From NCBI GenBank assembly GCA_031835245.2, contig JAVKOQ020000083.1, forward strand, positions 124,001 to 188,000: DNA of 64,000 bases, written 5' to 3'. Made by a program: the position numbers and the translations under genes. Below the pieces are notes generated by a model, which saw only the letters and a program-made list of their open reading frames with translations, was not told where the DNA came from and made no database searches. Positions 1 to 60,070 of the stretch are shown here, piece by piece (the stretch's first letter is position 1; every line of letters starts with the position of its first letter). The stretch comes from Balamuthia mandrillaris (taxonomy: Eukaryota).

Positions 1-3000
1 GGACAAATAATAAATAAACGAGACGAGACAGTTTCAAGGAGCTTACCCTATAGTTATAGGAAGAACGGCCCTCAGAAGAATCCACATCAGAGCGTATTTC
101 AATGGTATCAATGTCCTGGCCTTTGTAGGTTTGTTGCCAAAGCTCTTTGATTATCTTGTTTATTTCTGCCATTTTAACTGAGTGGTACTTCATCAAAGCT
201 CTGTTTCACAATTATTGTTGAAAAAATGATAAGAAAAGAGTATTGCAAAGAAAAGGGAAAATAATAACTTATCCAACGCAACATGGTATTTCTCCAAATC
301 ACTGTTTGCCATTTCCATCGTCTACAAGTGAGCAAGGTTAGAAGAAAGCAAGCAAGCAAGGAAAGCAGGAAAGGAAGAGAATGGGGTCACCTTGACTTTG
401 ATGAGCATCTGTCTGAATTGTTCATCAATGTCTTTGTACATAGGTTTTTTGAGGTCATGAATGTGCTCTCTTATCTGTTGCTTGAAGATATCTCGCTGGC
501 CAATCAGCCTATTAGCTTCCTGGTGCTTCTTCCTTATGTTCTGAGATAAGTTCTCAATGTCAAAGTCAATTGCTTCGCTAGAGCTGAGGTCGAGGGCAGC
601 TTCTTTGGCCTTTATCTCTGCTGCTTTCTCTGCAATGCATTGCTTTTGCTTTCTGTAGCAAATGTTCTCCTCAATGTTGCGTTTGTGTATGTCACTGGTA
701 GCTAACATTTCACGTATTTCATCAAGTTGGGCGCTTAATTCTTCACTTTGGGTGGCAATATCTTGGAGGCAAGACCCTAACTCCACCTTTTGGTCATTCA
801 GTTGTTGGATCTTAATTTGTAAAGTCTCCACACTTGTTCTGGTTTATATTGAGAATTTGTGAGAAAGAAATAATAAAGGCAAGATGTTACAAGTAAGAAA
901 TAAAGAACGAGAGACATATCGTTTTGGCAACAAAGACAAGCAAAGTTTGAGAGATGACACGAAAGAAATGACAAAAAAAAAAAGTACCCTCCAATTTGCT
1001 TTTGTAAATTTTCAATGCAGGCTATGTACTCTTGGTATTGGTCCTTCTCTCGCTGGATCTCATCAAGTTGTTCCTCATATTCTTTTTGCTGCTGAGTTCT
1101 TTTTGAGACCAGTGCTTCCTTCTCGCCTATTTTTTTGTCCAAATCAGCTTTTAGTTTCTATAGAAGTAAGTTGTTAGAGATAGCGAATAGGAAGTTGCAA
1201 AAAAAAAAAAAAACCTCAATTTCTTCTTCAAGAAGTTGGTTGGCCTCGATAAGTTCTTTGCAATTGAGTTCCAACCTTACTATAGCATCTGAAGCAGCTT
1301 TGCTTTGCAGCAATCGCTCTTTGAGCTGATGCATCTCTGACTCTGCTTTATGTCGTGCAGTTTGTTTCTGTTGAAACTGAATCCTTAATTGCTCTAAATT
1401 TGCCATTATGGATTGACTGTCGGAGAATTAGGCATGTGTTGATAGCGGGAGGGGAAACAGGAGGAAAGCTAGGAACGCTGAGGAACCTTTTCTCTTGGAG
1501 CGAAGTCTGTTCAAAATCAAGATCTTCCATGGATCGGTGATCTCCTGAGTCTGTCATGTTGCGTTCTTCTCGCTCTATTTCGGTTTGCAGCCGCTTTACC
1601 TCCATGTAGTCCCTTGAAATGGAGTCTGCGTCGTTGATAAGAGAACAGAGCTTCCTTTCCTCCAAATCTAAAACTTTTAATGATTCAGAGAGCTGGGACA
1701 AAACGAGATAAGTGAAATGGATTTGACCAGCCAAAGAAATGGATCAACAGACCTCGTCTGCTTCCTTGGATAAGTTTGCTTTCTGTTGCTCCAGGGCTTG
1801 CAAACATGACTTCATGCCAGGAATATCTTGGTCTTCTAGTCTAGATATCTCCCTCCACACAGGAGACAGGCCGCTCAACATTTTATGCATTTTCTCGGTA
1901 TCGGTCAAAATGGCCTGTTGTTCGTTGAGGGATGTTGGAACTCTTGCAAGAAGTTGTTCCAGCTTTATGAGATTGTTTGTAAGATAAAAGTGATGACGGA
2001 AATCGCAAATTAAATACAATTTGTAATAAATAAATAAATAAATAAATACGAATACCTTTGAGATGAAGCTGCATAGCATGTCGGGTTCCATGCCTCGGTC
2101 ACAGAGAGGACAGCCTGCCTCCTTATGCGCCATTTCCATGAATTTTTTGTACATTATCTCGCCAGCTTGAGTCATGGCCACCTCCCTTTAAGACATTTAT
2201 GGGAATGATTATGTTACAAAAAAAAACTTGCAGAAAGGGCAAGAGAGAGAAAACAAACTTTCGAATGGCGTCAAGCTTTTGTTCTGTTTCTGTGATAAGG
2301 TCGGGAAGAGGACGGTTGATGTAACCTATTGCCTCCATTTTGGTGCGATTCTCTGTGTTCCAAAAATAACTATATTAGAATTCTTCTGATCCAATAGGCT
2401 ATTAATTTTGCAAGAGTACCGTTCAACTGGCGTTGCAGGCGCTGCAGCTGGGAGGTAGTACTATTCTCTTCACCAGTGAGAGAGGACAGTTTTATCTTGG
2501 TATCTTGTAAACGATTACGGTGTGAGGTCTGGCTTTTCCTTTTTTTGCTGTATTCAATAATGAAGGTAAGCAAATGCTTGAAATGAACAGCACGCTCCCA
2601 CAACAACAAAAAAATAAAAAAATACAATAAAATAAATAAAAAATAAAATTAAAAAATACCTCAACAGCTTATTCAGCTCAACTTTGAGGCGATCGGGAGT
2701 GGGCATGTCTGGAAATAATTCCTCAAAAGCTTGTCGTTTACTTTCCAGCTTGGATTGGTACGACTCTTCTTTGCTTTTGCATTGGCTCCGTTTGATGCTC
2801 AGGCTCGCCCTAGCGGCTGCTTCTAAATTCAGTCCCTTTATCCTATTGCCAATGTCTTTAATCTTCGCATCAAGGTCAGATTTTTCAGCATGCAGCTCAC
2901 TGATTTGTTGATTAATGGCATCGGGGTCAAATCCTTCAATCAACACATTGAGTTCGTTTTCCTGTTGGCGATAAATAGTAGTATTAAGTTGATGAACGCC

Positions 3001-4634
3001 TTTGTCAAATAAAACTCACCTTCGTTTGCAACTGTGCTTCTATTTGAGCTAGATGGCCGTGCGCTCTTCTGTTTTGTTCTATTTCTCGATTGGTAGCGTT
3101 GATGCGATCCTTGTTTGCGTTCTAAGGAAAGCCAATTACAATTTTATGTGAGAAAAATAAAAAGCAAGAAAGGGAAAAATAGGAAGAGAGTATTTACTAA
3201 AGATATGTCCTTCTGCTTTATTTGCTCTCTGATCGTACTGATCTGTTCTTGGACTTGTTCCAGGGCAGACACTATCTCTTGATTTTGTACATTGAAGTTA
3301 TTCTGCAAGTAAGCGTTAGCGTGTTAATGGGTGCGCAAGATAGCAAAGAAAGATAGAGAGAAGAAAGAGAGAGAAGAGCAGAGAGAGAAGAGAGAAGAGA
3401 GAGAGGAAGCGTCAATAAGCTTTTGTTATCATAACATATTTTACCTTAGTATTCGTGATAGCTTTGTTCAAACCAATCGACAAGCTCTTTGTGGTGCTAA
3501 GGAAGTTGGTGATTGTTGCTTGATTGAAAGGGGGCGAATCAAATCCAGGTAAGGAGTAGCGTTGTGCAAATGCCACAATCTGCTTATCACGCTCTAATGA
3601 AAGGGAATGTTGTCGCTGTTTTACAGGTAAAGTTTAGAACACAACAACAGAAAGATTTTAAAAAAAAAAGGGGGGGAGCGCGGAGGGGAAGCAACGTACT
3701 TCAAGGGAGGATTTATGGTTTCCCAATTGCTCGCTGATGTTGTGTAGTGTCTCTTCATGAGATGCCTTTTCGGAGTTAAGCTTTTGAACTCTTGTTTGAA
3801 TGTCTTTTTCAGCTGCAAAGCGGCGCTGCAGTTCTTGGTTGAAGGTCTCCGCCAACGCAAACAGTTCCTCGTCGGTTTCTTTATAACAACAAAGAAAAAA
3901 AATGAATGAAATGCAGTAAGGCTTGTTTAAAAACTATTCCAAACCTTCAAACTCTTGATTCAATTGATCGTAAGTTGCTTGATTTGCTTTTGTCATCTGA
4001 ACGAGTACTGCTTTCAGTTGCTTGACTTCATTTAGGGCTTCAGTGATGGAAGAAGCTTTTTGTCTCAGTTCCATGGAGGCTTTTTCCATGGCCTCGAGTT
4101 CAGCTTGCAGTTTTTTGATCTCCTCTTCGGCGGAGGCTTGAAATTTTTGCTTATTCTTTAGCTCTTTGCGAATCTGCAAACAACAAAAACAAAAATAAAT
4201 TTAAATAAATATAAAGAAAAATAATAATATGAACACAGGATAGTTTCGAGACAATGAACCTGATGAGCGTGATCTTTTTGGTTTTGGAGATTGTCCAGCT
4301 TTAGCTTATATTCGCGGATTTGTTGAGCCTGCTCCTTTCGTTGTTTCTTTATAGTATCCAACGCTTTTGTATATCTGAAACGTGGGGAATAAGCCCAAAC
4401 CCAAGAAGCATAAAGAAGACTAACAAACCTTGTTGCTGCAAATATGTCGTCAAACTTCTTTTTCAAAGAGGAACCTTCAGAGAGGGGCCAGTTTGATTCT
4501 TCTTGATGGCAAAAGATCACGTTCTCCAAAATGGGCTTGGAAACTCCAATCAATTCCGGTATCTCTTTGTCCAAATCCGCACAACGAAAGCTTTGACTTA
4601 CTTTCTGTGGAGTTTGAAGACAGATTTTAGAAAA

Positions 4635-4686
<52 letters not shown>

Positions 4687-5190
4687 TGAAGAAAAAGAGG
4701 AGACGCGGTGTTACCTCCCCGTTGGAGTTATAAGTCTGAAGGGCACTCTCTAGCGTCTTACACACCTTTTTGCTGGCCGTCTGTGTGAGCTGCAACGAGC
4801 GCGTGCAGACGATGGGCTTGCCGTGTACGTTGCGGAAGCGAAGTTTTATCTGAGCCTTCACCTCTCGTTCGCCCGCCACCTTCGTGTCGTGGATGAAAGC
4901 CTGCCCACTGCGGGACCCTGGCGGCAGGTTCCCCGTTGTAGCGTACTTCAAACATTCGATTACGGTCTACATAGGAAATGGAAAAAGAAGAGTCGAAAGG
5001 AGACATGAGGAAGGAGAACAAGAAGAAGTACGCAGAAGTGAATACTATTAGAGAAGAGAGAGAATACCGTTTTCCCAGCACCATTCGCACCAACGATGAT
5101 GGTCAACGGCTGATAGAATTCGATTATGTTTCTGTTCTGGGGGCTAAAGCTTCGTATCCCTTGAATAAGAAGCTTGTCGATGGTGGTCAT
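1..5190 (-). CDS. RAD50: DNA repair protein RAD50 (multi-exon; 3' end runs off the window)
   Basis: ATG at 5190: [15 protein letters not shown]...[10 protein letters not shown] (Walker A); [17 protein letters not shown] (Q-loop); long coiled coil; zinc hook CPLC near 2100-2112; [27 protein letters not shown] near the window start. Confidence 0.97.
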
Positions 5191-5409
5191 CCTCGCAAGC
5201 ACACACACATAAACCAAATACCAGAAATACAAGAAAAAAAAATGATCAACCCTCTGCCTTTTGCTCTTTGATTTCTCTCTCCTCCTCTTTTCTTCAGATC
5301 TCTCTCTGCTACCTTTTTTTTTCTCTGGCTCAATTTTTTCGAGGCAAAATTTCTGAGGGTTTAAATTTATTCCCAGAAAAATTTTATAAACAAAAACAAA
5401 AAAAAGAAA

Positions 5410-8400
5410 ATGTTCGCTGCAACGGATGCGGCGGAGGAACACCGACAAGAAGAAGAAGGCGGAATGCAAGAACAAGGAGAAGATTGTGCAGACCCAGGAC
5501 CGTACGTTTTTTAACATGACTCTTGCTTTTTTTTTTTTTTTTTTTTTTTTGGCTTTGAGAGTATCGAATCGATTGAATTTTCTCTCCGCTACGTTTTTTT
5601 TTCCCCCCCCTCTCTCTCTTTTGATCTCTTCTCTATTATTTTTGTAGTGCTTCAGCGGACACGCTGCGTTTCCTCGTTGCCACGGATAACCATTTGGGCT
5701 ATGCAGAGAAAGATCCAATCAGAGGGGACGACTCTTTCAACACTTTTGAAGAGATACTGCAACTCGCCCAATTTCACAAGGTTATTGCTACTTTTTGATT
5801 CATTTATTTTTACGTCTTGTTTGTGAGCTTTTTGTTGTCTTATGTTGTCTTATGTTGTTGTTGTTCTTCTTTTTCTTCTTTCTTTCTTCGTTCTTCGTGC
5901 TTTGTTCTTCTTATTCTTCTTCTTGTTGGTTTGTAGTGGGTGTCTTTCCTTTGTGTTGTTTTCCTGAATTGTTGCTGTTGTCCTTCTTTTGTGGTTGTGG
6001 TTGTGGTTGATTGTTCATTGGTGCTGCACACAGGTGGACGCCGTTCTGTTGGGAGGAGACCTTTTTCACGACAACAAGCCCTCTCGACGGACCTTGTTTA
6101 GGACAATGCATTTGCTGCGGAAGTATTGCCTTGGCGACAATCCCATCAGCATTCAGATTGTCAGCGACCAATCTATGAACTTTCATTCAGGGTTGGGAGG
6201 ACCTTTCTCTCTCTTTCGCTTTTCTCGTTCTGTTTCTCCTTTTTTTTTTTTTGGCTTTGTCTTGCTCGTGCTTCTCATAATCTTTGTTTCTCCTCTTATG
6301 CTGTGCTAAGAAGACTGTATTCTTATTGATGGTTCTATTTATGATAGCAATGGAGTCAATTACGAGGATCCCAATTTTAATGTCGCCATCCCCGTATTTT
6401 CTATCCATGGCAACCACGATGACCCTACTGGAGTACGTACTCAGCAGTACAGCCACTATTACTTTCCTTATGTGCCACGAAAAACTGACGGACTTTCTCT
6501 CTTTGGTTTGATGTAGGATGGTGGATTAGCTGCATTAGATTTGCTAAGCGTAGCCAATCTCGTGAACTACTTTGGAAAGAGCGAAAATGTAGATGACGTA
6601 ACTGTATATCCGATCTTGCTGACTAAGGGTAAAACCAAAGTGGCCATCTATGGTCTAGGCAATATCCGGGATGAAAGGCTTTATAGGACGTTTCAACAGA
6701 AAAAAGTAAAGCTTATGCGGCCTGTAGAAAGTCGGGAAGAATGGTTTAATATGTTTGTTCTCCACCAGAACCGGTTCGTCCTCTTTCCGCTTATCTCCTC
6801 ATGTTCTTCATCTTCTTCCTCATTCATACTATTGTAGGGTTGCCCACTCTCAAAAGAATTACATTCATGAGTGCATGCTGGACAATTTTTTGGACTTTGT
6901 GATTTGGGGACATGAACATGAATGCTTAATCACTCCTCAATCCAGCACCGTCGGTGACTTTTATATCACACAGCCTGGATCCTCTGTGGCTACTTCTCTT
7001 AGCGAAGGAGAATCCAAGAAAAAGTGACGCCTTTCTCTCGCTTGCTCTCTCTCTCGCTTCTCTTTTTAACTCCGTACTCATTGAAAACAGACATGTTGGT
7101 CTGTTGGAAATTTGTGAGGACCAATTCAGATTAAACGCTATTCCACTCAAGACGGTCCGCCCGTTTTTGATGGAGGAAGTCATCCTTAGAGAACACGATT
7201 TGGATGCGAACGACCCAGAGCAGGTGGTAGAGTTTTTGGGTGACAAAGTACGAGAAATGATTGCTCGCGTTAGCACTGAGTTTCCTAGAGACAATCGGGC
7301 GCCCAAGTTGCCTCTTATTCGTTTGAGGGTACTTGACATCATTCCTTCTCTTGTTTTCTGGTTAGTCAGTGCGCATTTTAATCTTTCCAACGTTAATATC
7401 GGCAGGTAGAGTATGGTGGCTTTTCCACGTGCAATCCGCAACGTTTTGGACAGCAGTTTGTAGGCAAAGTGGCTAATCCAAATGATATTTTACTCTTTTA
7501 CAAAAGAAGAACTGCAACACGTTCGTATTTTCTTTTTTTCTTTTTCTCTTTCCTTTTCTTATCCTTCCCTCCCCTTCCCTCCCCTTCCTCTTCCAATCGC
7601 CAAAGCAAAACAAAAGGAAGAAGGTGAAGCACAAACATTGCTTAAAGCCCACAGGCCTGAACCATTGGATGACACTCGTATCGAGGATTTGATCACGTCT
7701 TACCTTGGCATCAGCCAAAAGTTGGAAATACTACCTGAACATGAGTTTAACATTGCTCTTCACAATTTTGTAGAAAAAGACGAAAGCAAAGCAATAGCGG
7801 AGTATATCTTTCTCTCCTCCCCTCTCTGCTTCTCCCCTCATTTGTACTTGTACTTGTTATGGTATTAATACTATTCTTCAAAGATTTGTGAATAAGAGAC
7901 TTAATGACATGCAACAGTTCTTAGTAGCTGATGATCCTAAGAAAACACTGGAAACGAGCTATTTGCAAACTTTGGTCACTGAGCAAACTGACCAACTCAG
8001 GGTTCAGGTGTCTATCTCTCCTTCTCTCTCTCTCTCTCTCTCTCTCTCTTTGTAATGTATTGGCTGATATGTATTTGTTATCATTAGCATGGCTCTTTGG
8101 AGTCTAGTGAGTTAGGTATGACTATACTTTTGTTGCTTGTTCGTCATGATATTTTTCAACTCAGGTCATATAATTTGAAATCCAGATGAAGAGATTCGAA
8201 AGGAAGAAGCATTGAAAGGAGAATTTCCAGCAAAGCCGAAGTACAGTAGCGATGACGAAGAAAACGAGGATGACTTGTTGGTCGCCAGCAAGCAAAAGCA
8301 TAAGTCAAAAGCCGGGTCTTCAGTGATGCCAACGGCTCCCAACAAGCGACCTCAACAGGTTACAAAGAAATCCAAAGCCGGTTCTTCCAGTGAAACCACC

Positions 8401-9053
8401 GCTACTACTTCCTCCTCTTCCAAAGGATCAAAGAGAGCACCAGCCAAGAAAACAAGGCAAAAGCCTGGCTATGCCCTCGATGTATGCCTCTCGCTTCTTT
8501 CCTTCTGCTTCTTGCCTCTTCATTCCTCCTCTGTTTGCTTCTGCTCTATTGCTCTCTGCTTTTTGCTAACATTTTTCTAAATCGCTTTTTTATGCAGATT
8601 ACAGCAAAGGAAGAACTGCACTCAGACGATGACTTTGCGGATGTTACTATTAACAAGGGAACAAACGAAGCCAATGACAGCACAAGCAACAACAAAGGAA
8701 AGAGAAAGCGGGCAGTCATGAAGCAGGAGAAACAGGATTCTGGAATTCTGGCGATAGCCACGAGTGGCAGTGACGCAGCAGCATCTGAGCAGCCTGCCAC
8801 TACCTCCCGACCGAGACAAAAGAGAAAAACCACAACAATAGCTCCAGCAACATCCCTTTTTTCCACATCAACCAACAACGTAAGTATTCTCTCTCTTTCT
8901 CTGTTACTTCTTTCTTTAGAACTCATTCCCATTCATACACGTTCTTAGCGCAATGAAGAAGCGGATGAAGAAGAGAGCAGTAGCGCAACTACCAGCGGAG
9001 GTGGAGGAGAGGTAGCTACCGTTATCAGCCGGTGGGGGAGACGAAGAAACTAG
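5410..9053 (+). CDS. MRE11: Double-strand break repair nuclease MRE11 (multi-exon)
   Basis: Spliced phosphoesterase motifs [56 protein letters not shown]; capping domain LPLIRLRV...[16 protein letters not shown]; stop TAG 9051-9053. The first exon (ATG 5410) is inferred from splice phase. Confidence 0.96.
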
Positions 9054-9209
9054 AGATTTCTGGGTTCGTGCTTTGTTGTTATTGGAATTCTTTTAGGTGA
9101 ATTAACGCGTGCATATTTTTTAACTAGTTTAATTGCCAATCAATTATAATTGTCGTTTGCAAAATAAATAAACAAAAAAAAAAAGAAGAAAAGGTTGAAA
9201 GCGTGTGTT

Positions 9210-9231
9210 ATGGCGTCTGGTACGCGTTGTT

Positions 9232-9283
<52 letters not shown>

Positions 9284-9978
9284 TCTCTTTCTCTTTCTCT
9301 CTGCTTTGTGCTTTTTTTTTTTTGCTCGTTGCTCTAGGTGATGATCACTCAGGTTTTTTGTTTCATGTACATTACTTCGTTAGCAACGTTGAGCTTAAAG
9401 GTGAAAGGTATCTCTCTCCCTCTCTTCTCTCCCTTCCTCTCCCCACGTATTGAGTCTTTGCTGCCATGAAATAGTCATTGAAGGTAAAGATCTCTTGGCA
9501 AAGGACAAGAATGGCCTTTCTGATCCGTACGTTAAGGTATATTTTGTTTTTTGTTTTTATTTTTGACGAGAGATCATTACTCTAACGGTTGTAAAGTTGA
9601 GCGTGCCGCCACAGAAACACAGAACTACTGTCAAATCTGCCACTCTGAGGCCTCAATGGAACGAAGAGTTTACCTTGTGCGTTACTCGTAGTCTCTGCCT
9701 CTTCTCCGCGTGTTGAATAGCTGACGATGTGCACGCCATTATACAGCGTAAACATGCAAACAGACTCAGAGCTTCGGTTAAGGATTTTTGACCACGACAA
9801 GTTTAGGTTTGTTGATCAACCTGGTATTTTTCTTGATGAAAGAGCAGATTGTCACTTTCATTTACGAACCAACACCATAGCAAAGATGACTTTATGGGCG
9901 CCTATCATTTCCCAGCCAGTGAGTTGCTCAAGATCAAAGCCAGTGGACAGGCAGCTGATCTTTGGCTCCAGTGCGCCA

Positions 9979-10023
<45 letters not shown>

Positions 10024-10260
10024 CTTTCCCCTCTCTCCTCTCGCTCTCAATGAGAAGTTTGAACGCTCATACTCTCTGTTCTCTCTCTCTCTCTGTTGTG
10101 TAGACTGAAGAACAAGAAAGGAGAGCACGACCAAGAAAGAGGAACTGTACGTCTTTGTTTTTAACTTTTCATCAGTCTGTTTGTTACACAGTTATCTTCT
10201 GTGCTCTAATCTTCTGTGCTCTATAAACAGTTACATGTAAAACTGGAATGGAGTGCTTAA
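9210..10260 (+). CDS. Small single C2-domain protein (Ca2+-binding type)
   Basis: Spliced: VELKVIEGKDLLAKDKNGLSDPYVK...TLRPQWNEEF...LRIFDHDKFSKDDFMG...RGTLHVKLEWSA*. The Ca2+-ligand Asp residues are present. The N-terminal exon is tentative. Confidence 0.85.
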
Positions 10261-13373: not shown

Positions 13374-13685
13374 CGAATGAGAAGAAGAGTTGACAGAGTG
13401 GAGAAAGGACAAACAAACCATATAATCTTCCTCATCCATAAAGTCCTCTTTGTTCTGCACAAACTTGCCCCGCTGAGAGGCGGAGGAGACAAAGGATTTG
13501 GGCGTCCATCCCTCCTTGGAGCCGACCGTGTTGTAGTAACCGGCGGAGAAGCCGCCGGTGAAGGCGCCATGAAAGCGTTTCCGCCCCTCAGAGTCCCTGA
13601 CCTCCTGCTTCCACACCGGCAGGAACTTGTTCTTGTCCTCGGCCTCCTCTTCCTCCCCGTAAGCAGGCAGCGCTGTTCCTATCAT
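10370..13685 (-). CDS. GPATCH1: G-patch domain-containing protein 1 (GPATCH1/TOUGH-like)
   Basis: N-terminal [36 protein letters not shown]...EDFMDEED; G-patch [43 protein letters not shown]; Lys-rich tail. Confidence 0.93.
13075..13375. repeat. (GAA)n and (GA)n microsatellite in a GPATCH1 intron
   Basis: Directly visible. Confidence 0.95.
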
Positions 13686-13929
13686 CTCTTCTCCTTCTTT
13701 TCTTTTCTGTGCTTATTTCTTGTCGACATCAGATGCGAAGAACATTTTTTGCCCAAATGCTGTACAATTACTGCACAGCCTTAATGTCGACAAAATATCA
13801 AAATAATACTTCGAGATTGCAACCTAATAGGTCATATACATCTATTTTCCTAATTGGTACGAGAAGGAGGACAAAGACTGCACAATTTGTGCAACAAAAA
13901 GTAGCGAGCATCGAAGCAGAAGAAAAGGG

Positions 13930-14669
13930 ATGAACGAAGAAGCGAGGGAGCAGACCACAGCAGCAGCTGTGACCGCCGCGACCAGGCTGCCCGGCTTTCT
14001 GGTGCAATGCGACTGGGACCAGGCCTGCAAGGAAGAAAAGTCTTTGTTCTGGATATCTTACCATCCGCCCACAGGTACTCCCATTTTTTGCTTTTCAAAA
14101 TGAAAGAGGGATGGAATCGATATTGCCCCCTCACCCCTCACTCTCTGGCTAACGCCTTTTTTCCATATGAAAAACACCCATCGCAACGCTGCAATGACGT
14201 GTCGTGGTGTGTTTTTTGTTGTCGTCGTTGTTTTTTTTTGGGGGGATGCAGTGGACGCGCCAACATTGCATGGCACTGTCCTCAACGCCAAGAAAGGAAA
14301 GGAGCTCTCTTGCGAGCAAGGATTCGCTGTCTCTCTTCAAAAACAGGTTTTTTGTTGTTCCTTCTCCTTCTTCTGCTTCTTCTTCTCTCGTTGTGGAGCT
14401 CACGTCGAAACACAAAACAAACCAACTCGCTGATAACCCAACAGAAGAAGCAGCTGAGCTTAACGGATCCGCAGAGCCACCACCGAGCCGTCATGCAAGC
14501 GCCCACCCACGCCTTTGCCCATTTTCACTCCAAAAGAGCGGTCTACAGCCTTGACCTCTCGCCCACAGGCGACCTGGGCGTCTCGGGAGACTCGAATGGG
14601 AGCATTCGCGTTTGGCAAGCCAATGATGGCATTCTTAGGGTTCTCCTCTCTTCAGTCCTTTCCTCTCTC

Positions 14670-26205: not shown

Positions 26206-26206
26206 T

Positions 26207-26441
26207 GTCGACAAAAATGAATGTGTGCACAAGCCTTGTAATTTTTGTGCAATAGTTGGTCACTACTTGAGCAATTCAAGTCGACAAAAATGGACGTGTG
26301 CACGACTCCTGAACATGCGTTGTAATTTTTGTGCAATTGTTGAGCAACTTTTGTCGACAAAAAGGAATGCGTGCACGACTGCTGAACAAGCGTTGTAATT
26401 TTGTGCAATGGTTGGTCACTATTTGAGCAACTCTCGTCGAC
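26207..26441. repeat. Three degenerate tandem units of 73-83 bp delimited by GTCGAC
   Basis: GTCGAC at 26207, 26280, 26353 and 26436; shared GTCGACAAAAA..GTGCAC..TTGTAATTTT(T)GTGCAAT..TTGAGCAA. Confidence 0.85.
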
Positions 26442-26494
26442 AAATAACATATATCTACAAAACAGAAACAAAGAGAAGAAGAAGAAGAAGAGAG

Positions 26495-34714: not shown

Positions 34715-35382
34715 ATTTTGTTGTTGGTTGTTGAAGGAGTATTTTTTTTTTTAGGAAGATGCCAAACCAAAAGGTGAGGGCCACTCCCTCCTTCCCCGCC
34801 TTTTCCTTCCTTCCTTTTCTTTTTTGTCACTTTTCTTTTTTTTTTGTTGGGTGTCGACACGAGTGGAGAATTTGTGTAACATTTGTGCTCCATTGCTGCA
34901 CCTTTGGGTGTCGACACGAATACAACAAATTGTGCTGAAGAGTGGAAGCACAATAGGTGCAGTGAAGATGCTGTATTGCTGCACAGTCACGGTACACGTA
35001 CTGATCAGGTTGAAAACAAACGCTGGAGTTTTAAAGCACAACATGTGCAATCTTCACCATCGAGTCGACACGAAAAATGTCGACTAAAATAAATAGAGAA
35101 AAAGAAAGAAGAGAGAGAAAGAGGAAAAGGGAGAAAGAAGAGGTGACCACGTCCTCACTTTTTTTTTTTGGTTTTCGTCACACTCCCTCTCCCTCTCTTT
35201 TTCCACAAACTTGTTGTTTTTCCCCCATTGTGTGTTTTTTTTTTTTTTGAAAAAAACAACTCCAACGAAACAAAAACAACAAAAAAAAAAAAACCCTGGA
35301 AGTGAATCTCAACACGGCAGCGCTGTTGCTGCTCAGCTTCCTCCTCTCCGCACTCTTTGGGGCCACGCTCTGCCTCGCCAGG

Positions 35383-55499: not shown

Positions 55500-56987
55500 A
55501 CCAGCATTTAAATAACGGTGGTCGTTGTAAAGAATCCATGCTTTTGTAAAGAGAGGTATATAGCCAGGAGCGCCATGACACCACTGCAGAAGCACATCTG
55601 GTTCTTCTGGAAGAGGAGGAACAGTCGGAGTAGGAAAGTTGCCATTGGGCAACTGTAATGTTAGCAAAAAGTCGAGTGTGCTGCGAATGAGGTTTGATAC
55701 AGTGGCATTGGCCATGAACTTAGAAAGATGCATCATTTGGAACAAGACACCAGATGTGCCATGGCCTTGGTCATATAGCACGACATCTTTTGGAAAAGAA
55801 CACCATAATACATAAGGAAGCAGCATAGAAAGTAAGAACGAACAAGTGAACATATGAAAGAATGTAAGAATAAAAGAAAAGACCGAATGGATACGCGCTT
55901 ACCTGGATAAGCAACATTACGCCACTTCAACACGGTCCCGTTTCCTGTCCGAACTCCAGCACTCAACATAGAGTGTGCCAACTCGTTCAACCACTCTGCT
56001 GGGATGACATAAGGAGCTCCATCTCTTTTACCTCCAAAGTGATCATTCAAGAAGTAAGCAGCAAAGAGGAGCCCGGCTTTGCCTTCATCAAAGGGGTCAG
56101 GAAAGGCTCGTTTCCCTTTCAGCACTTCCTTAAAGGTGGCTAACACTCTGGAGATGTATGTTTGGCTCTTTGGAGCGTCTCCAAGTAGGTCGTATATCAC
56201 AGCAGCCACGGAGTAAGGGCCTACAGCAGAGTACATGAAACCAACCATTTGATTTTTTTCAGCAGAGTTATCCTTCTCAACAGCCTTTTGTAGACTAGTC
56301 AGTAACAAAGAAATAAAGAGAAGAATAAAGAGAAAGTTGAACCTGAAGAGAAGAGTTGACGTAACGAGCAGCAATGGCAAGAAAAGACTTAGCTTGTTGT
56401 TCATCCCGTTCAACACTATTTTTGTACAAGTGAAGAAATAAAAGAGCTCTGCCTATACTTCAACCGTTGTGTCAGTGGTAACAAGAATTCATCTGAAGAA
56501 TAAGCCGAAGAAGAAGAAGAAAGACGAAGAAGAAAGAAAGAAAGAAAGAAAGAAACGACAAGAAAGAAACGACAAGAAAGAAACAACAAAAAACGACAAG
56601 AGAAATGGACTTACCGGCGCTTCCAGACATTACATCCCACCCATCCGCAAAGTCACTCTCAGGAGGAGCGCCTTGCAGGATGAGCTCCAGGTATTGGCTG
56701 CCTCGAACGCTCATGTTGCGACGCAACTCCTCAGAGATGAACACGGGGTCACCCGGACGATAGTCCGGCATGTCGTTGACGTAGAACCGAGGACAAGGAG
56801 GGCCGACATGTTGCGGGCACGAAGTGTTGTCGCTCCTACCTTTATGGCTATAACGGTCGCGCTCGCTCTCTCCAAGTTGGGAGAAATGCTCCAAAGCTCT
56901 GCTGTGTTGCAGCACAAACGCCAAGAGAAGCTGAAAAGCAAAGACAACGAGCAGACCCCAGTAAAAGCACCCAGGAGTGGGTTTCAT
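55079..56987 (-). CDS. LanC-like protein (lanthionine synthetase C-like) with N-terminal signal or anchor
   Basis: GSAGRALLFLHLY, GHGTSGVL, GNFP, LQWCHGAPG, VWKRGLLTKG.LGHGVSGNTYMFL. Confidence 0.88.
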
Positions 56988-57241
56988 GACTTCTCTCTCT
57001 CTCTTTCTGTATTGTATGCATTACGCCTCCAATCGCAACATTTTCCTTTTTTCCATTTCCAGGACGACACGGAAAATTATTATTTTTCCCTTCCGTGTCG
57101 ACGCAAAGTGGGCCGTCACGTCTGTATCGGGACGACATGGAAGTATTCGGGACGACATGAAGTCGAAAATTCAAACGAAAAAGGGGAAAAAGAAGGAAAC
57201 ACTCACTGTTGTTGCGGTGAGCGAGTGAACAGGCCTCCGCA

Positions 57242-60070
57242 ATGGCATCGCGCAGGCTGAGCGGCTGGACGCTGAGCATACCCTCTGCCACCACCAACCC
57301 TGATTATACGGTTCGTTTTTTTTTTTGGTTGTTTGGATATTATCATATATTTTATTTATTTATTTTGTTTTGGGACCATCCTCTCCCTCTTCCATTTTAT
57401 TGATACAATCCGCCACCTTGAACGTAACTTTTGGGTTGCTCATCAACAAAAAAAGGTCTACAACATATTCATCAGTGATGGCGTCTCCTCATGGGCAGTT
57501 CCCAAACGTTTCAGCGCTCTGCATGACTTTAAATCGATGGTGTGCTGGTTTTTCTTTCACCCCTATTTTTTTTTGTCTTTCGTTCTTTCTCATCATTTCT
57601 TTCTTCACGTCTTCTCGACCCCATCGTCCATCAGATGGAAGAAAAGTATCCTCGTAAACGGTTCCCACCGTTTCCGCCAAAGAAGCTCTTCGGCTCGAAC
57701 GACCCTGACACCGTGGAGGAGCGCAGGAGAGAGCTGGAGGGCTTTCTGAAGGGCCTGTTGGCCGACTCTGGCTTTCACTGCAAGTACATGCTTCGTTTCC
57801 TGGATCCGCACCACCAAGTACGTTTCTTGCTTCTTGCGTTGTTCTTTCCTCTCTTCTCTCTTCCGTCCACCTCTGCTTCGCTCTCTTCTCCCTTTGTCCT
57901 TGCTGCTTGCTTCTTGCTTCTTGCTTCTTGCTTCTTGCTTCTTGCTTTTTTCTAGCCTCTAATTGCTCCATTGTGACTACAGTCAAACCAAGAGTCAAGT
58001 ATGGACAGAGCCACGTATAGCCACCTACTAGCCATGCAACAAGCAGAGGAAGAGGAAAGAGCAAAGCAAGAGTCGTATGAACAATACAGACAGGACAAAT
58101 ACAAAGAGGGAGAGGCACAACAAGAGTCGGACTATGAGGAAGCGGACTCTTATAACTTTTTGCTGCCACCGTTAGTCTTGAACCCACGCGAAGAAGGCTT
58201 ACCAGACGCTATAACGTTGGCCAACGGAGAAACCTGCTATTTGGCAGCATTGTTGGATGACATGCGCACCAATGTGCTCTATTTGCATCATCTTCGACAG
58301 CGATTGGATCGTTGCAGTGGCGACTCTGCTCGCTTAGGCATTCTTGCAGAGCAACGACAGAAGCTTTCGAGCACTTGCGCGGCTGTACGACGAGAAATAG
58401 ACCTCATTCTTCCTTCTTCTTCCATTTCGTCCACTCCGTCATCATTACTAGGAAAAGTAGAGCAGTTGCGATGGGAAAAGGAGCAGTTACAACAACGAAC
58501 GCATCGAAGAAGGCCTAACCCTGAGATTCGTTCATTGAGAGGAGCGGCGACGGCGATGAAGAAGTTGCACACGTGGTTGCTGAGAGCAAGAGAGCAGATG
58601 AGCATAGCTCTTCAATGGGCAGAGAGCGCGGAGGAGTCCATCCTGTTGTCTGTTAGCGGTGAAGAAGAAGGAGGTTCCTCCGGGAAGGAAGAGGAGCATC
58701 ATGAACAAGAATTAAATGTAGCGGATCACAACACTTGCCTCGTGGACTTGGACTATAACAGCAACAATGTTAACACCAGCGCATTTCTTCCTCCTCCTGC
58801 TTACTATCACTACATGCCACCACCGATGTATACATCACCATACCCTCCTCCCGCTTATGTTCCATCTCCTCCTCCTTCTTCCTTCTCTTCAACTTCGTCG
58901 TCGTCTGATGTTCCACCATCAACTTCACAACTGCAGCAACAACCTACGTTTGTTCATGCGCCTTTCTATCCAGCACAACATCCGATGATGTTGATGGTGC
59001 CTTCACAAACTGCTTATCCACCTACCGCCACCAATGTTGAGTTGCCTCTTTCCTCCTCCTCTGCTTCATCTTCTTCTTTCACTTTGTCGTCTCCTGCAAT
59101 CTTGCCAGCTTCCCTCCTGCCTCCTCCTTATACTAATGTTACTCCTACCTCTTCTTCTCCTACTCTCCCTGATCCATCACTTCAGCCAAATACCGATTCC
59201 GCTATCATTACTCTTCCTCAAGACATAAACCACTCTTCACCGCAACAACCACAACAACAGGTTTCCGCTTCTTCCTCTTCCTTCTCCGAGCCTCTGTTCC
59301 CTCAACCAAAACATCAACAAGATGACTTAGGCCAAGCTCTCCGGTCTCTGGAAGCGGAAGCCGAGCAGTTGGTTCTTGAAGCTATCCGACAACAACAAGA
59401 AGAAGCTGACTCCTCTTCCTCCTCTGCTGCCTCTTCATCCTCTGCATCTCTTCAGGTAGAAGGACAAGTCAGACTGTTCAAAGAGAAAGTGAGACAACTG
59501 CAACTCTCTGTACGAGCTCGTTTTTCCTCCACAGAGGAAGCTCGTCTCGTCCATCAGCGCATCGATGAGATAGCCAGTTATCTCAATGACAACCTCAACT
59601 TTCTTCAAAGCCTTCGCAACGGCCAAACTGCATCGCTCTCTCCACAAGACCAACTTTGTGTGTTTGAGGATCAGGTCTTTCGTCTTCTTCATGATGCAAA
59701 TCTTCTGGAGGAGCGAAGCAAAGCCCAAAACAGCAACGAGGAGAGAAATCATGAGGCTGAAGTGGCGCAGCTGCACCGAAGAATTGTCGCGTTGATGAAG
59801 CAGATGGTGGCTTATTGCTCCATGTTGCAAAAGCAAACTCAACAACAGCAACAACAGAGGCGGGGTGATGATGACGGCGGAAGAGGTTGGCTGATGGACC
59901 GCTTGGAGGACCTGCAGGAAAACTTGGTGGACTTTGAACATAACTTTTGCACCAAGTTCCACGTACAGAAGAGCCTCGGGGATAAGGCGAGAGCTATTTT
60001 CACCGAGCGGAAGTTGAAGGAGGCCATTCTCCTTCATGAAGCTGCTGCTTCTGATATGTTTGAACTGTAA
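57242..60070 (+). CDS. PX-domain protein with Pro/Ser-rich middle and helical C-terminus
   Basis: YTVYNIFI...KRFSALHDF...FPPFPPKKLFG...VEERRRELEGFLKGLL (PX); long final exon. The start is inferred. Confidence 0.82.

What the first reader, a model, noticed from the sequence alone, without database searches (positions are those of the whole stretch)
5100..5500. RAD50 and MRE11 head-to-head on a 219-bp shared promoter
Seen: the RAD50 ATG is at 5190 (-) and the inferred MRE11 ATG at 5410 (+). Known: the two form the stoichiometric core of the MRN complex; their homologues are operonic in bacteria, archaea and T4 (sbcCD, mre11-rad50, gp46/47) but unlinked in human and budding yeast. Inference: a eukaryotic operon-like pair co-regulated by a bidirectional promoter, either retained from an ancestor or re-assembled. 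Caveat: divergent pairs are common in this window (about 8), so the notable point is partner identity rather than orientation.
Basis: partly seen in the sequence, partly recalled or inferred. Interest (0 to 1): 0.8.

Follow-up and report, generated by a model that had tools for sequence, protein, structure and literature searches.

The report
Balamuthia RAD50–MRE11 head-to-head gene pair
In the amoeba Balamuthia mandrillaris the genes for the two core subunits of the main DNA-break sensor (RAD50 and MRE11) sit back to back 219 bases apart and likely share one small promoter, but no relative checked keeps them adjacent, so this is probably a local arrangement, not a conserved eukaryotic operon.

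Summary
Confirmed. Intact, spliced RAD50 (ATG 5190, minus strand) and MRE11 (ATG 5410, plus strand) are 219 bp apart in Balamuthia mandrillaris. A contig from a different strain bridges the junction. Transcript contigs leave about 89 bp uncovered, so a shared promoter is likely but untested. Such spacing is ordinary here: 3 of 7 divergent pairs measured are under 260 bp. Adjacency is not conserved: 1 of 12 amoebozoan genomes or contigs where it could be judged, and 0 of 83 other MRE11 loci. Unexpectedly the genes stay near each other in some relatives: Acanthamoeba 25 genes, Polysphondylium pallidum 46 accessions, Tieghemostelium 336 (same contig), Dictyostelium discoideum 465. Best reading: old residence on one amoebozoan chromosome, then juxtaposition by local rearrangement within Centramoebida. 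It is not a relic of the prokaryotic operon. It belongs to a known class (RAD7-RAD16, H2A-H2B, Hsp10-Hsp60).

The parts
47..5190 (-). RAD50 gene, exons 1-20 (1183 of 1306 codons; the C-terminal part lies beyond the window's left edge)
   Evidence: splicing
5410..9053 (+). MRE11 gene, 14 exons, 764 aa (the NCBI model has 752 aa and differs after residue 730)
   Evidence: splicing
5191..5409 (.). 219-bp spacer between the two start codons, 33% GC, with many differences between strains
   Evidence: run X8 differences at 5208-5252
5191..5309 (-). RAD50 5' leader, at least 119 nt by a spliced contig (contigs do not define starts)
   Evidence: run X4 record 5 begins at 5309
5310..5398 (.). About 89-bp core outside both transcript contigs, 27% GC: the candidate bidirectional core promoter. 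The right bound is inferred from a 17-letter offset over a skipped A-rich repeat
5337..5348 (.). TTTCGAGGCAAA, holding the only CpG of the core and unique in the window. Candidate shared element; it resembles an E2F-type dyad (recalled) but does not match the consensus exactly. Untested
5383..5390 (.). Palindromic TATA-like TTTATAAA, readable on both strands; role untested

Best explanation
Balamuthia's intact RAD50 and MRE11 genes are transcribed and spliced in opposite directions from a 219-bp spacer that likely acts as one compact bidirectional promoter, and they were probably brought head-to-head within the Balamuthia-Acanthamoeba group by local rearrangement of a chromosome on which both had likely lain for a long time. 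Shown: identity, intact frames, splicing, divergence, spacer size, junction in a second strain, and no adjacency in the relatives examined. Inferred: one open, A+T-rich core of about 89 bp would load RNA polymerase II in both directions and couple the two subunits' transcription, which would help keep the 2:2 core balanced. The coupling is not required, because the separated Acanthamoeba genes are both induced by DNA damage. Also inferred: ancestral same-chromosome residence and an origin by inversion.
For: Gene models and splicing. Transcript contigs end at about 5309 and 5399. Acanthamoeba: RAD50 ACA1_063900 and MRE11 ACA1_064360 on one 2.04-Mb scaffold with 24 annotated genes between. P. 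pallidum 46 accessions apart and D. discoideum 465 apart (PMC3175470). T. lacteum 336 apart on one contig. Contig L031, sister to Luapelamoeba hula (a centramoebid, recalled) at SH-aLRT 91, has no RAD50 in 2.3 kb upstream of MRE11. Background same-scaffold synteny exists: the Acanthamoeba PAAF1-like gene, whose apparent Balamuthia counterpart is 3 genes from MRE11, lies on the same scaffold 95-120 genes away (matched by annotation, not by sequence). Both genes look vertically inherited: RAD50 sister to Acanthamoeba at support 99; MRE11 placement unresolved, 55% identical to Acanthamoeba.
Against: No start site was mapped and no co-expression was measured: only 73 RNA reads were laid from 3 runs, and contig depths cannot rank genes. 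The spacer differs strongly between strains, which does not suggest tight constraint. Acanthamoeba's 25-gene distance is closer than all 3 control neighbours found (1 on the same scaffold, 2 on others), which fits a decayed ancestral adjacency equally well. Same-chromosome residence is not seen in C. fasciculata, P. violaceum or Planoprotostelium (different scaffolds, which could still be one chromosome). Distances rest on accession order, verified against locus tags only for Acanthamoeba and against DNA only for Balamuthia.
Confidence: 0.58

Rival explanations
1. The head-to-head pair was already present in the amoebozoan ancestor and has been kept only in Balamuthia. Inversions moved the genes apart elsewhere, a little in Acanthamoeba and P. 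pallidum and more in other dictyostelids.
For: Graded distances of 1, 25, 46, 336 and 465. Under free shuffling the chance is about 0.3% for Acanthamoeba and 0.7% for P. pallidum (gene totals recalled). A specific adjacency is more easily lost than gained (inference).
Against: Given only a shared chromosome, the chances rise to about 7-11% and 5% (chromosome sizes assumed), and 46 is the smallest of 6 dictyostelid cases. Adjacency in 0 of 11 other amoebozoan cases. It needs losses in both Acanthamoebidae and Evosea.
Confidence: 0.2
2. A coincidence in a genome full of tight divergent pairs: two independent core promoters lie back to back with no shared control.
For: GPATCH1/PAAF1-like (244 bp) and LanC-like/PX (254 bp) are equally tight pairs of apparently unrelated function. 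The spacer varies between strains. Separated Acanthamoeba genes are both induced by damage. A large scan makes such coincidences likely somewhere.
Against: About 89 bp leaves little room for two independent promoters (inference). The spacer lacks the TGTCGAC motif found in 5 of the 6 other divergent spacers measured, so it has a different architecture.
Confidence: 0.17
3. A relic of the prokaryotic sbcCD or mre11-rad50 operon, either inherited without a break or acquired by horizontal transfer.
For: The homologues are operonic in bacteria, archaea and T4 (PMC3175470, passage).
Against: Divergent orientation cannot give one transcript. There are 13 and at least 20 spliceosomal introns. RAD50 nests in Amoebozoa, sister to Acanthamoeba (no prokaryotic rows were in that tree). 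No adjacency in 83 other loci, nor in the algal and diatom accession pairs listed.
Confidence: 0.02
4. Misassembly at the junction.
For: The spacer holds low-complexity A and T runs, and no laid contig spans the whole 2.5 kb.
Against: A contig from a different strain and study bridges 5281 to 5428. Both genes have complete 5' ends facing the spacer, and RNA covers both leaders.
Confidence: 0.02

Closest known systems
Eukaryotic head-to-head pairs of complex subunits (RAD16/RAD7 in fungi, histone H2A/H2B, Hsp10/Hsp60; PMC2871058, passages)
   Same: Two subunits of one complex, divergently transcribed, less than 1 kb apart, and in DNA repair, a function the paper says is often associated with bidirectional promoters.
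   Different: Those pairs are conserved over many species (RAD16/RAD7 in 14, H2A/H2B in 24). This one was found in one species, and 'rad50' does not occur in that paper's main text.
Prokaryotic and phage sbcCD, mre11-rad50 and T4 gp46/gp47 operons (PMC3175470, passage)
   Same: The same two protein families are physically linked.
   Different: Divergent rather than co-directional, so two separate spliced mRNAs. Eukaryotic-type proteins, with no continuity through other eukaryotes.
Mre11/Rad50 fusion proteins (Mimivirus R555, and copies in Dictyostelium, Polysphondylium, moss and algae; PMC3175470, passages and section 5)
   Same: Another way of coupling the nuclease and the ATPase in amoeba-associated genomes.
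   Different: Those are single polypeptides outside the canonical clades. Here there are two canonical genes; no MRE11 match was found inside any RAD50-set protein fetched.
Acanthamoeba castellanii RAD50 (ACA1_063900) and MRE11 (ACA1_064360)
   Same: Closest named relatives (49% and 55% identity), on one scaffold.
   Different: 24 annotated genes lie between them.

Membership tests
Eukaryotic RAD50 | Split ABC ATPase with Walker A, long coiled coil, central CXXC zinc hook, C-terminal signature and Walker B | tested here: met
   Walker A and CPLC in the model; Pfam; C-terminal motifs in the identical NCBI protein
Eukaryotic MRE11 | Metallophosphoesterase motifs plus the Mre11 DNA-binding domain PF04152 | tested here: met
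Bidirectional (head-to-head) gene pair | Divergent genes less than 1 kb apart | tested here: met
   219 bp; about 89 bp between transcript contigs
Bidirectional (head-to-head) gene pair | Both genes transcribed | tested here: met
   Spliced reads or contigs for both genes in runs X17, X18, X10 and X4
Bidirectional (head-to-head) gene pair | Mapped start sites and shared cis-elements driving both directions | not testable with these tools
   No pile-up of read starts; candidate motifs only
Bidirectional (head-to-head) gene pair | Correlated expression | tested here: inconclusive
   30, 38 and 5 reads in three runs are too few
Evolutionarily conserved eukaryotic gene pair | The same adjacency in other species | tested here: not met
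   0 of 11 other amoebozoan cases; 0 of 83 loci
Operon (sbcCD or mre11-rad50 type) | Co-directional genes on one polycistronic transcript | tested here: not met
   Opposite strands; introns read CT..AC in RAD50 and GT..AG in MRE11 on the plus strand
Mre11/Rad50 fusion family | A single polypeptide with both domains | tested here: not met
   Two separate divergent frames

The most novel reading that the evidence does not exclude
MRE11 and RAD50 formed a head-to-head, co-regulated pair in the amoebozoan ancestor. Balamuthia alone still keeps it on a promoter core of about 90 bp with one shared cell-cycle or damage element, and the 25-, 46-, 336- and 465-gene distances in Acanthamoeba and dictyostelids are its decaying trace on an ancient amoebozoan linkage group.
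Probability: 0.2. Interest if true: 0.65.

Novelty: new member of a known kind. Interest (0 to 1): 0.36.

Why it matters
It is an apparently unreported eukaryotic case of the two MRN core genes facing each other across a minimal spacer, a natural test of whether subunit balance favours shared promoters. The side result may matter more: the two genes lie on the same scaffold or close in accession order in Acanthamoeba and three dictyostelids, hinting at chromosome-level gene linkage conserved across Amoebozoa; a search for that topic returned no paper. It also settles a doubt in a 2026 review (PMC13315211, passage), which calls the presence of RAD50 in these amoebae unclear: Balamuthia has an intact, expressed RAD50 and Acanthamoeba a full-length one. 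As it stands it is a single-species arrangement of a familiar class.

Tried and rejected
No whole genome is held for this window, so genome-wide baselines were impossible and only the window's own divergent pairs were used. No listed holder run was on record as RNA; raw-read runs of the same species label were laid instead. Run X12 gave only short poor matches and X16 one 218-bp piece, both uninformative. Read numbers and contig depths were not used to rank expression. Viral and prokaryotic collections gave 1 and 2 MRE11-like loci, none with RAD50. A C2-domain gene flanks MRE11 in both Balamuthia and Acanthamoeba, but the Balamuthia gene looks like one short domain by eye and the Acanthamoeba one is 3393 nt, so it was not counted as shared gene order. 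In the Acanthamoeba control, 3 of 6 search terms gave a likely counterpart; ITFG1 and trehalose synthase were not found in the cut file, and the GH15 hit was judged a different gene. The 11 loose letters at 5207 in X17 reads were read as a strain difference, not an intron, because X8 DNA differs there too. An out-of-frame upstream ATG at 5210, whose stop overlaps the RAD50 ATG, is changed in the X8 strain and was dismissed. The exact E2F consensus (recalled) is not in the spacer. The first L031 tree held two out-of-frame pieces and was redone. The RAD50 tree is the quick version because the careful search did not finish. Supplements of PMC11165085 were unreadable, those of PMC9283445 gave nothing, and bioRxiv supplements are closed. 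Look-ups of earlier findings returned one unrelated bacterial note and nothing else.

Full report
Observation. The sequence shows an ATG at 5190 on the minus strand and one at 5410 on the plus strand, with 219 bp between them. Hand-built models give RAD50 as 20 GT-AG exons and 1183 stop-free codons up to the window edge, and MRE11 as 14 GT-AG exons and 764 aa. Pfam supports both. Single exons hit Balamuthia mandrillaris proteins at 100%. The models match the NCBI proteins over 1183/1183 and 730/730 residues, and those proteins are KAL6065852.1 and KAL6065853.1 on one 190,401-bp contig, possibly the window's own assembly.

Expression and assembly. RNA reads from three runs (30, 38 and 5 laid) and the contigs of run X10 show 9 modelled introns removed, on the expected strands. 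Run X4, guessed to be DNA but plainly spliced, has a RAD50 contig reaching 5309 and an MRE11 contig that would begin near 5399. About 89 bp (5310-5398, 27% GC) is therefore outside both. Contigs cannot define start sites, so this is a bound only. Run X8 is unspliced DNA of another strain and study; one of its contigs joins 5281 to 5428 with 45 letters on the shorter side, and it differs at many positions in the RAD50 leader. The junction is real and the spacer is not tightly conserved.

How unusual is the spacing? With hand-called start codons, the 7 divergent pairs measured in the window are 219, 244, 254, 514, 668, 757 and 1662 bp apart (some starts are uncertain, and an eighth pair near 51,000 was not measured). 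The geometry is ordinary; only the partner identity is notable. A named pair is adjacent by chance about 7e-5 of the time among 29,500 genes (gene count from PMC10471605, passage). That gives 0.002-0.03 head-to-head coincidences per genome over an assumed 100-2000 complex pairs.

Is it conserved? Adjacent in 1 of 12 amoebozoan cases, Balamuthia itself. Acanthamoeba: ACA1_063900 and ACA1_064360 on one 2,036,344-bp scaffold with 24 annotated genes between, and accession order follows locus tags there (PMC7468528, supplement rows only). L031, a metagenome contig sister to Luapelamoeba hula: other genes on both sides. P. pallidum EFA85561/EFA85515 and D. discoideum XP_629462/XP_628997 (PMC3175470, section 5; same scaffold not verified). 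T. lacteum KYQ93419/KYQ93083 on one contig; Planoprotostelium on different scaffolds. C. fasciculata and P. violaceum on different scaffolds; Synstelium gene 7728 against 12198. E. histolytica EHI_125910 (paralogue EHI_077650) against EHI_079960, and E. invadens tags far apart (PMC6263441 supplement). Of 83 MRE11 loci from metagenome, viral and genome collections (57 clusters at 90% identity, 25 with 2 kb or more upstream), none carries RAD50, while all 14 RAD50 queries hit the window as a positive control. The Phaeodactylum and two Micromonas accession pairs are far apart.

A residual signal. Distances of 25, 46, 336 and 465 are small for genomes of 10,000-15,000 genes (totals recalled): about 0.3%, 0.7%, 7% and 7% under free shuffling. 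Given a shared chromosome of assumed size they are unremarkable: 7-11%, 5%, 73% and 55%. The dictyostelid values are not independent, and 46 is the smallest of 6. As a control, 3 window neighbours could be placed in Acanthamoeba by annotation: PAAF1-like on the same scaffold 95-120 genes away, GPATCH1 and HMG-CoA lyase on other scaffolds. Some background synteny thus exists. The data favour old same-chromosome residence but cannot separate an ancestral adjacency from a later one.

Origin of the genes. RAD50 is sister to Acanthamoeba RAD50 (SH-aLRT 99) inside an amoebozoan clade (94) in a quick tree; MRE11's place among amoebozoans and oomycetes is unresolved (no prokaryotic rows). With the many introns and the divergent orientation, this excludes a transferred or surviving prokaryotic operon.

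Mechanism. I commit, at 0.58, to a compact bidirectional promoter created by rearrangement within Centramoebida. The core of about 89 bp holds a palindromic TATA-like octamer (5383) and a single CpG-centred element (5337-5348) unique in the window, and it lacks the TGTCGAC motif common in other spacers. Their roles are untested. Shared control would be convenient for a 2:2 complex (established knowledge, recalled) but is not needed. In Acanthamoeba both separated genes rise after DNA-damaging drugs (bioRxiv 10.1101/2024.09.29.615638 and PMC11165085, passages). In D. discoideum both rise in a telomerase-homologue knockout, RAD50 about 100-fold (PMC6759168, passages). In one Acanthamoeba infection data set they diverge at 24 h (MRE11 log2 -0.71, padj 2e-6; RAD50 +0.14, not significant) and agree at 16 h (+0.26 and +0.29).

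Comparison and novelty. It looks like known head-to-head subunit pairs (RAD16/RAD7, H2A/H2B, Hsp10/Hsp60; PMC2871058, passages) but fails their conservation criterion, and it is neither an operon nor a fusion. Three searches aimed at this arrangement (listings and abstract openings read, one paper followed up) showed no report of adjacent MRE11 and RAD50 in a eukaryote, and PMC10471605 does not mention either gene. The library lacks most subscription papers. Other papers opened (PMC5594099, PMC2488364, PMC9928731: passages; PMC11762632, PMC9283445: supplement searches) added nothing decisive.

Verdict. A real, probably species-level head-to-head pair of a known class, with a modest hint of ancient amoebozoan linkage. 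Interest 0.36.

Noticed in passing
window 13721, 13785, 23900, 24063, 26206-26442, 34852-35084, 57096, 61065, 61249 and others: TGTCGAC occurs 31 times (both strands counted, so the palindrome TGTCGACA counts twice) against 5.4 expected. GTCGAC lies in 5 of 7 divergent spacers measured: a candidate general Balamuthia promoter motif. It is absent from the RAD50-MRE11 and GH15/TreS spacers.
   Followed up: partly
window 41839-47770: A GH15 trehalase-like gene (minus, ATG 44803) and a trehalose-synthase-like alpha-amylase-family gene (plus, ATG 45318; the synthase label is my reading) are head-to-head 514 bp apart: a second divergent pair of related function. Bacterial origin possible, untested.
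   Followed up: partly
window 13685-13930 and 56987-57242: GPATCH1 with a PAAF1-like WD40 gene (244 bp) and a LanC-like gene with a PX-domain gene (254 bp) are equally tight divergent pairs; the Acanthamoeba counterparts of the first pair are on different scaffolds.
   Followed up: partly
window 9200-10260: A short C2-domain gene follows MRE11 in tandem. Acanthamoeba also has a much longer C2 gene beside MRE11; orthology untested.
   Followed up: partly
window 39896-41083 (minus): A long single frame matches Pfam Beta-lactamase, the serine hydrolase family. Function unknown; horizontal origin possible.
   Followed up: no
window 48500-51000 (minus): A protein with PBZ (poly-ADP-ribose-binding zinc finger) matches, possibly another DNA-repair gene about 40 kb from MRE11.
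   Followed up: no
L031:1-8954: Metagenome contig of a Luapelamoeba-like amoeba: MRE11 lies between an unidentified minus-strand gene (dynamin-like by eye, no Pfam match) and an SGT1/ecdysoneless gene.
   Followed up: partly
window 5188-5210 (minus): A 7-codon out-of-frame upstream frame whose stop overlaps the RAD50 start codon; its ATG is changed in the X8 strain.
   Followed up: partly
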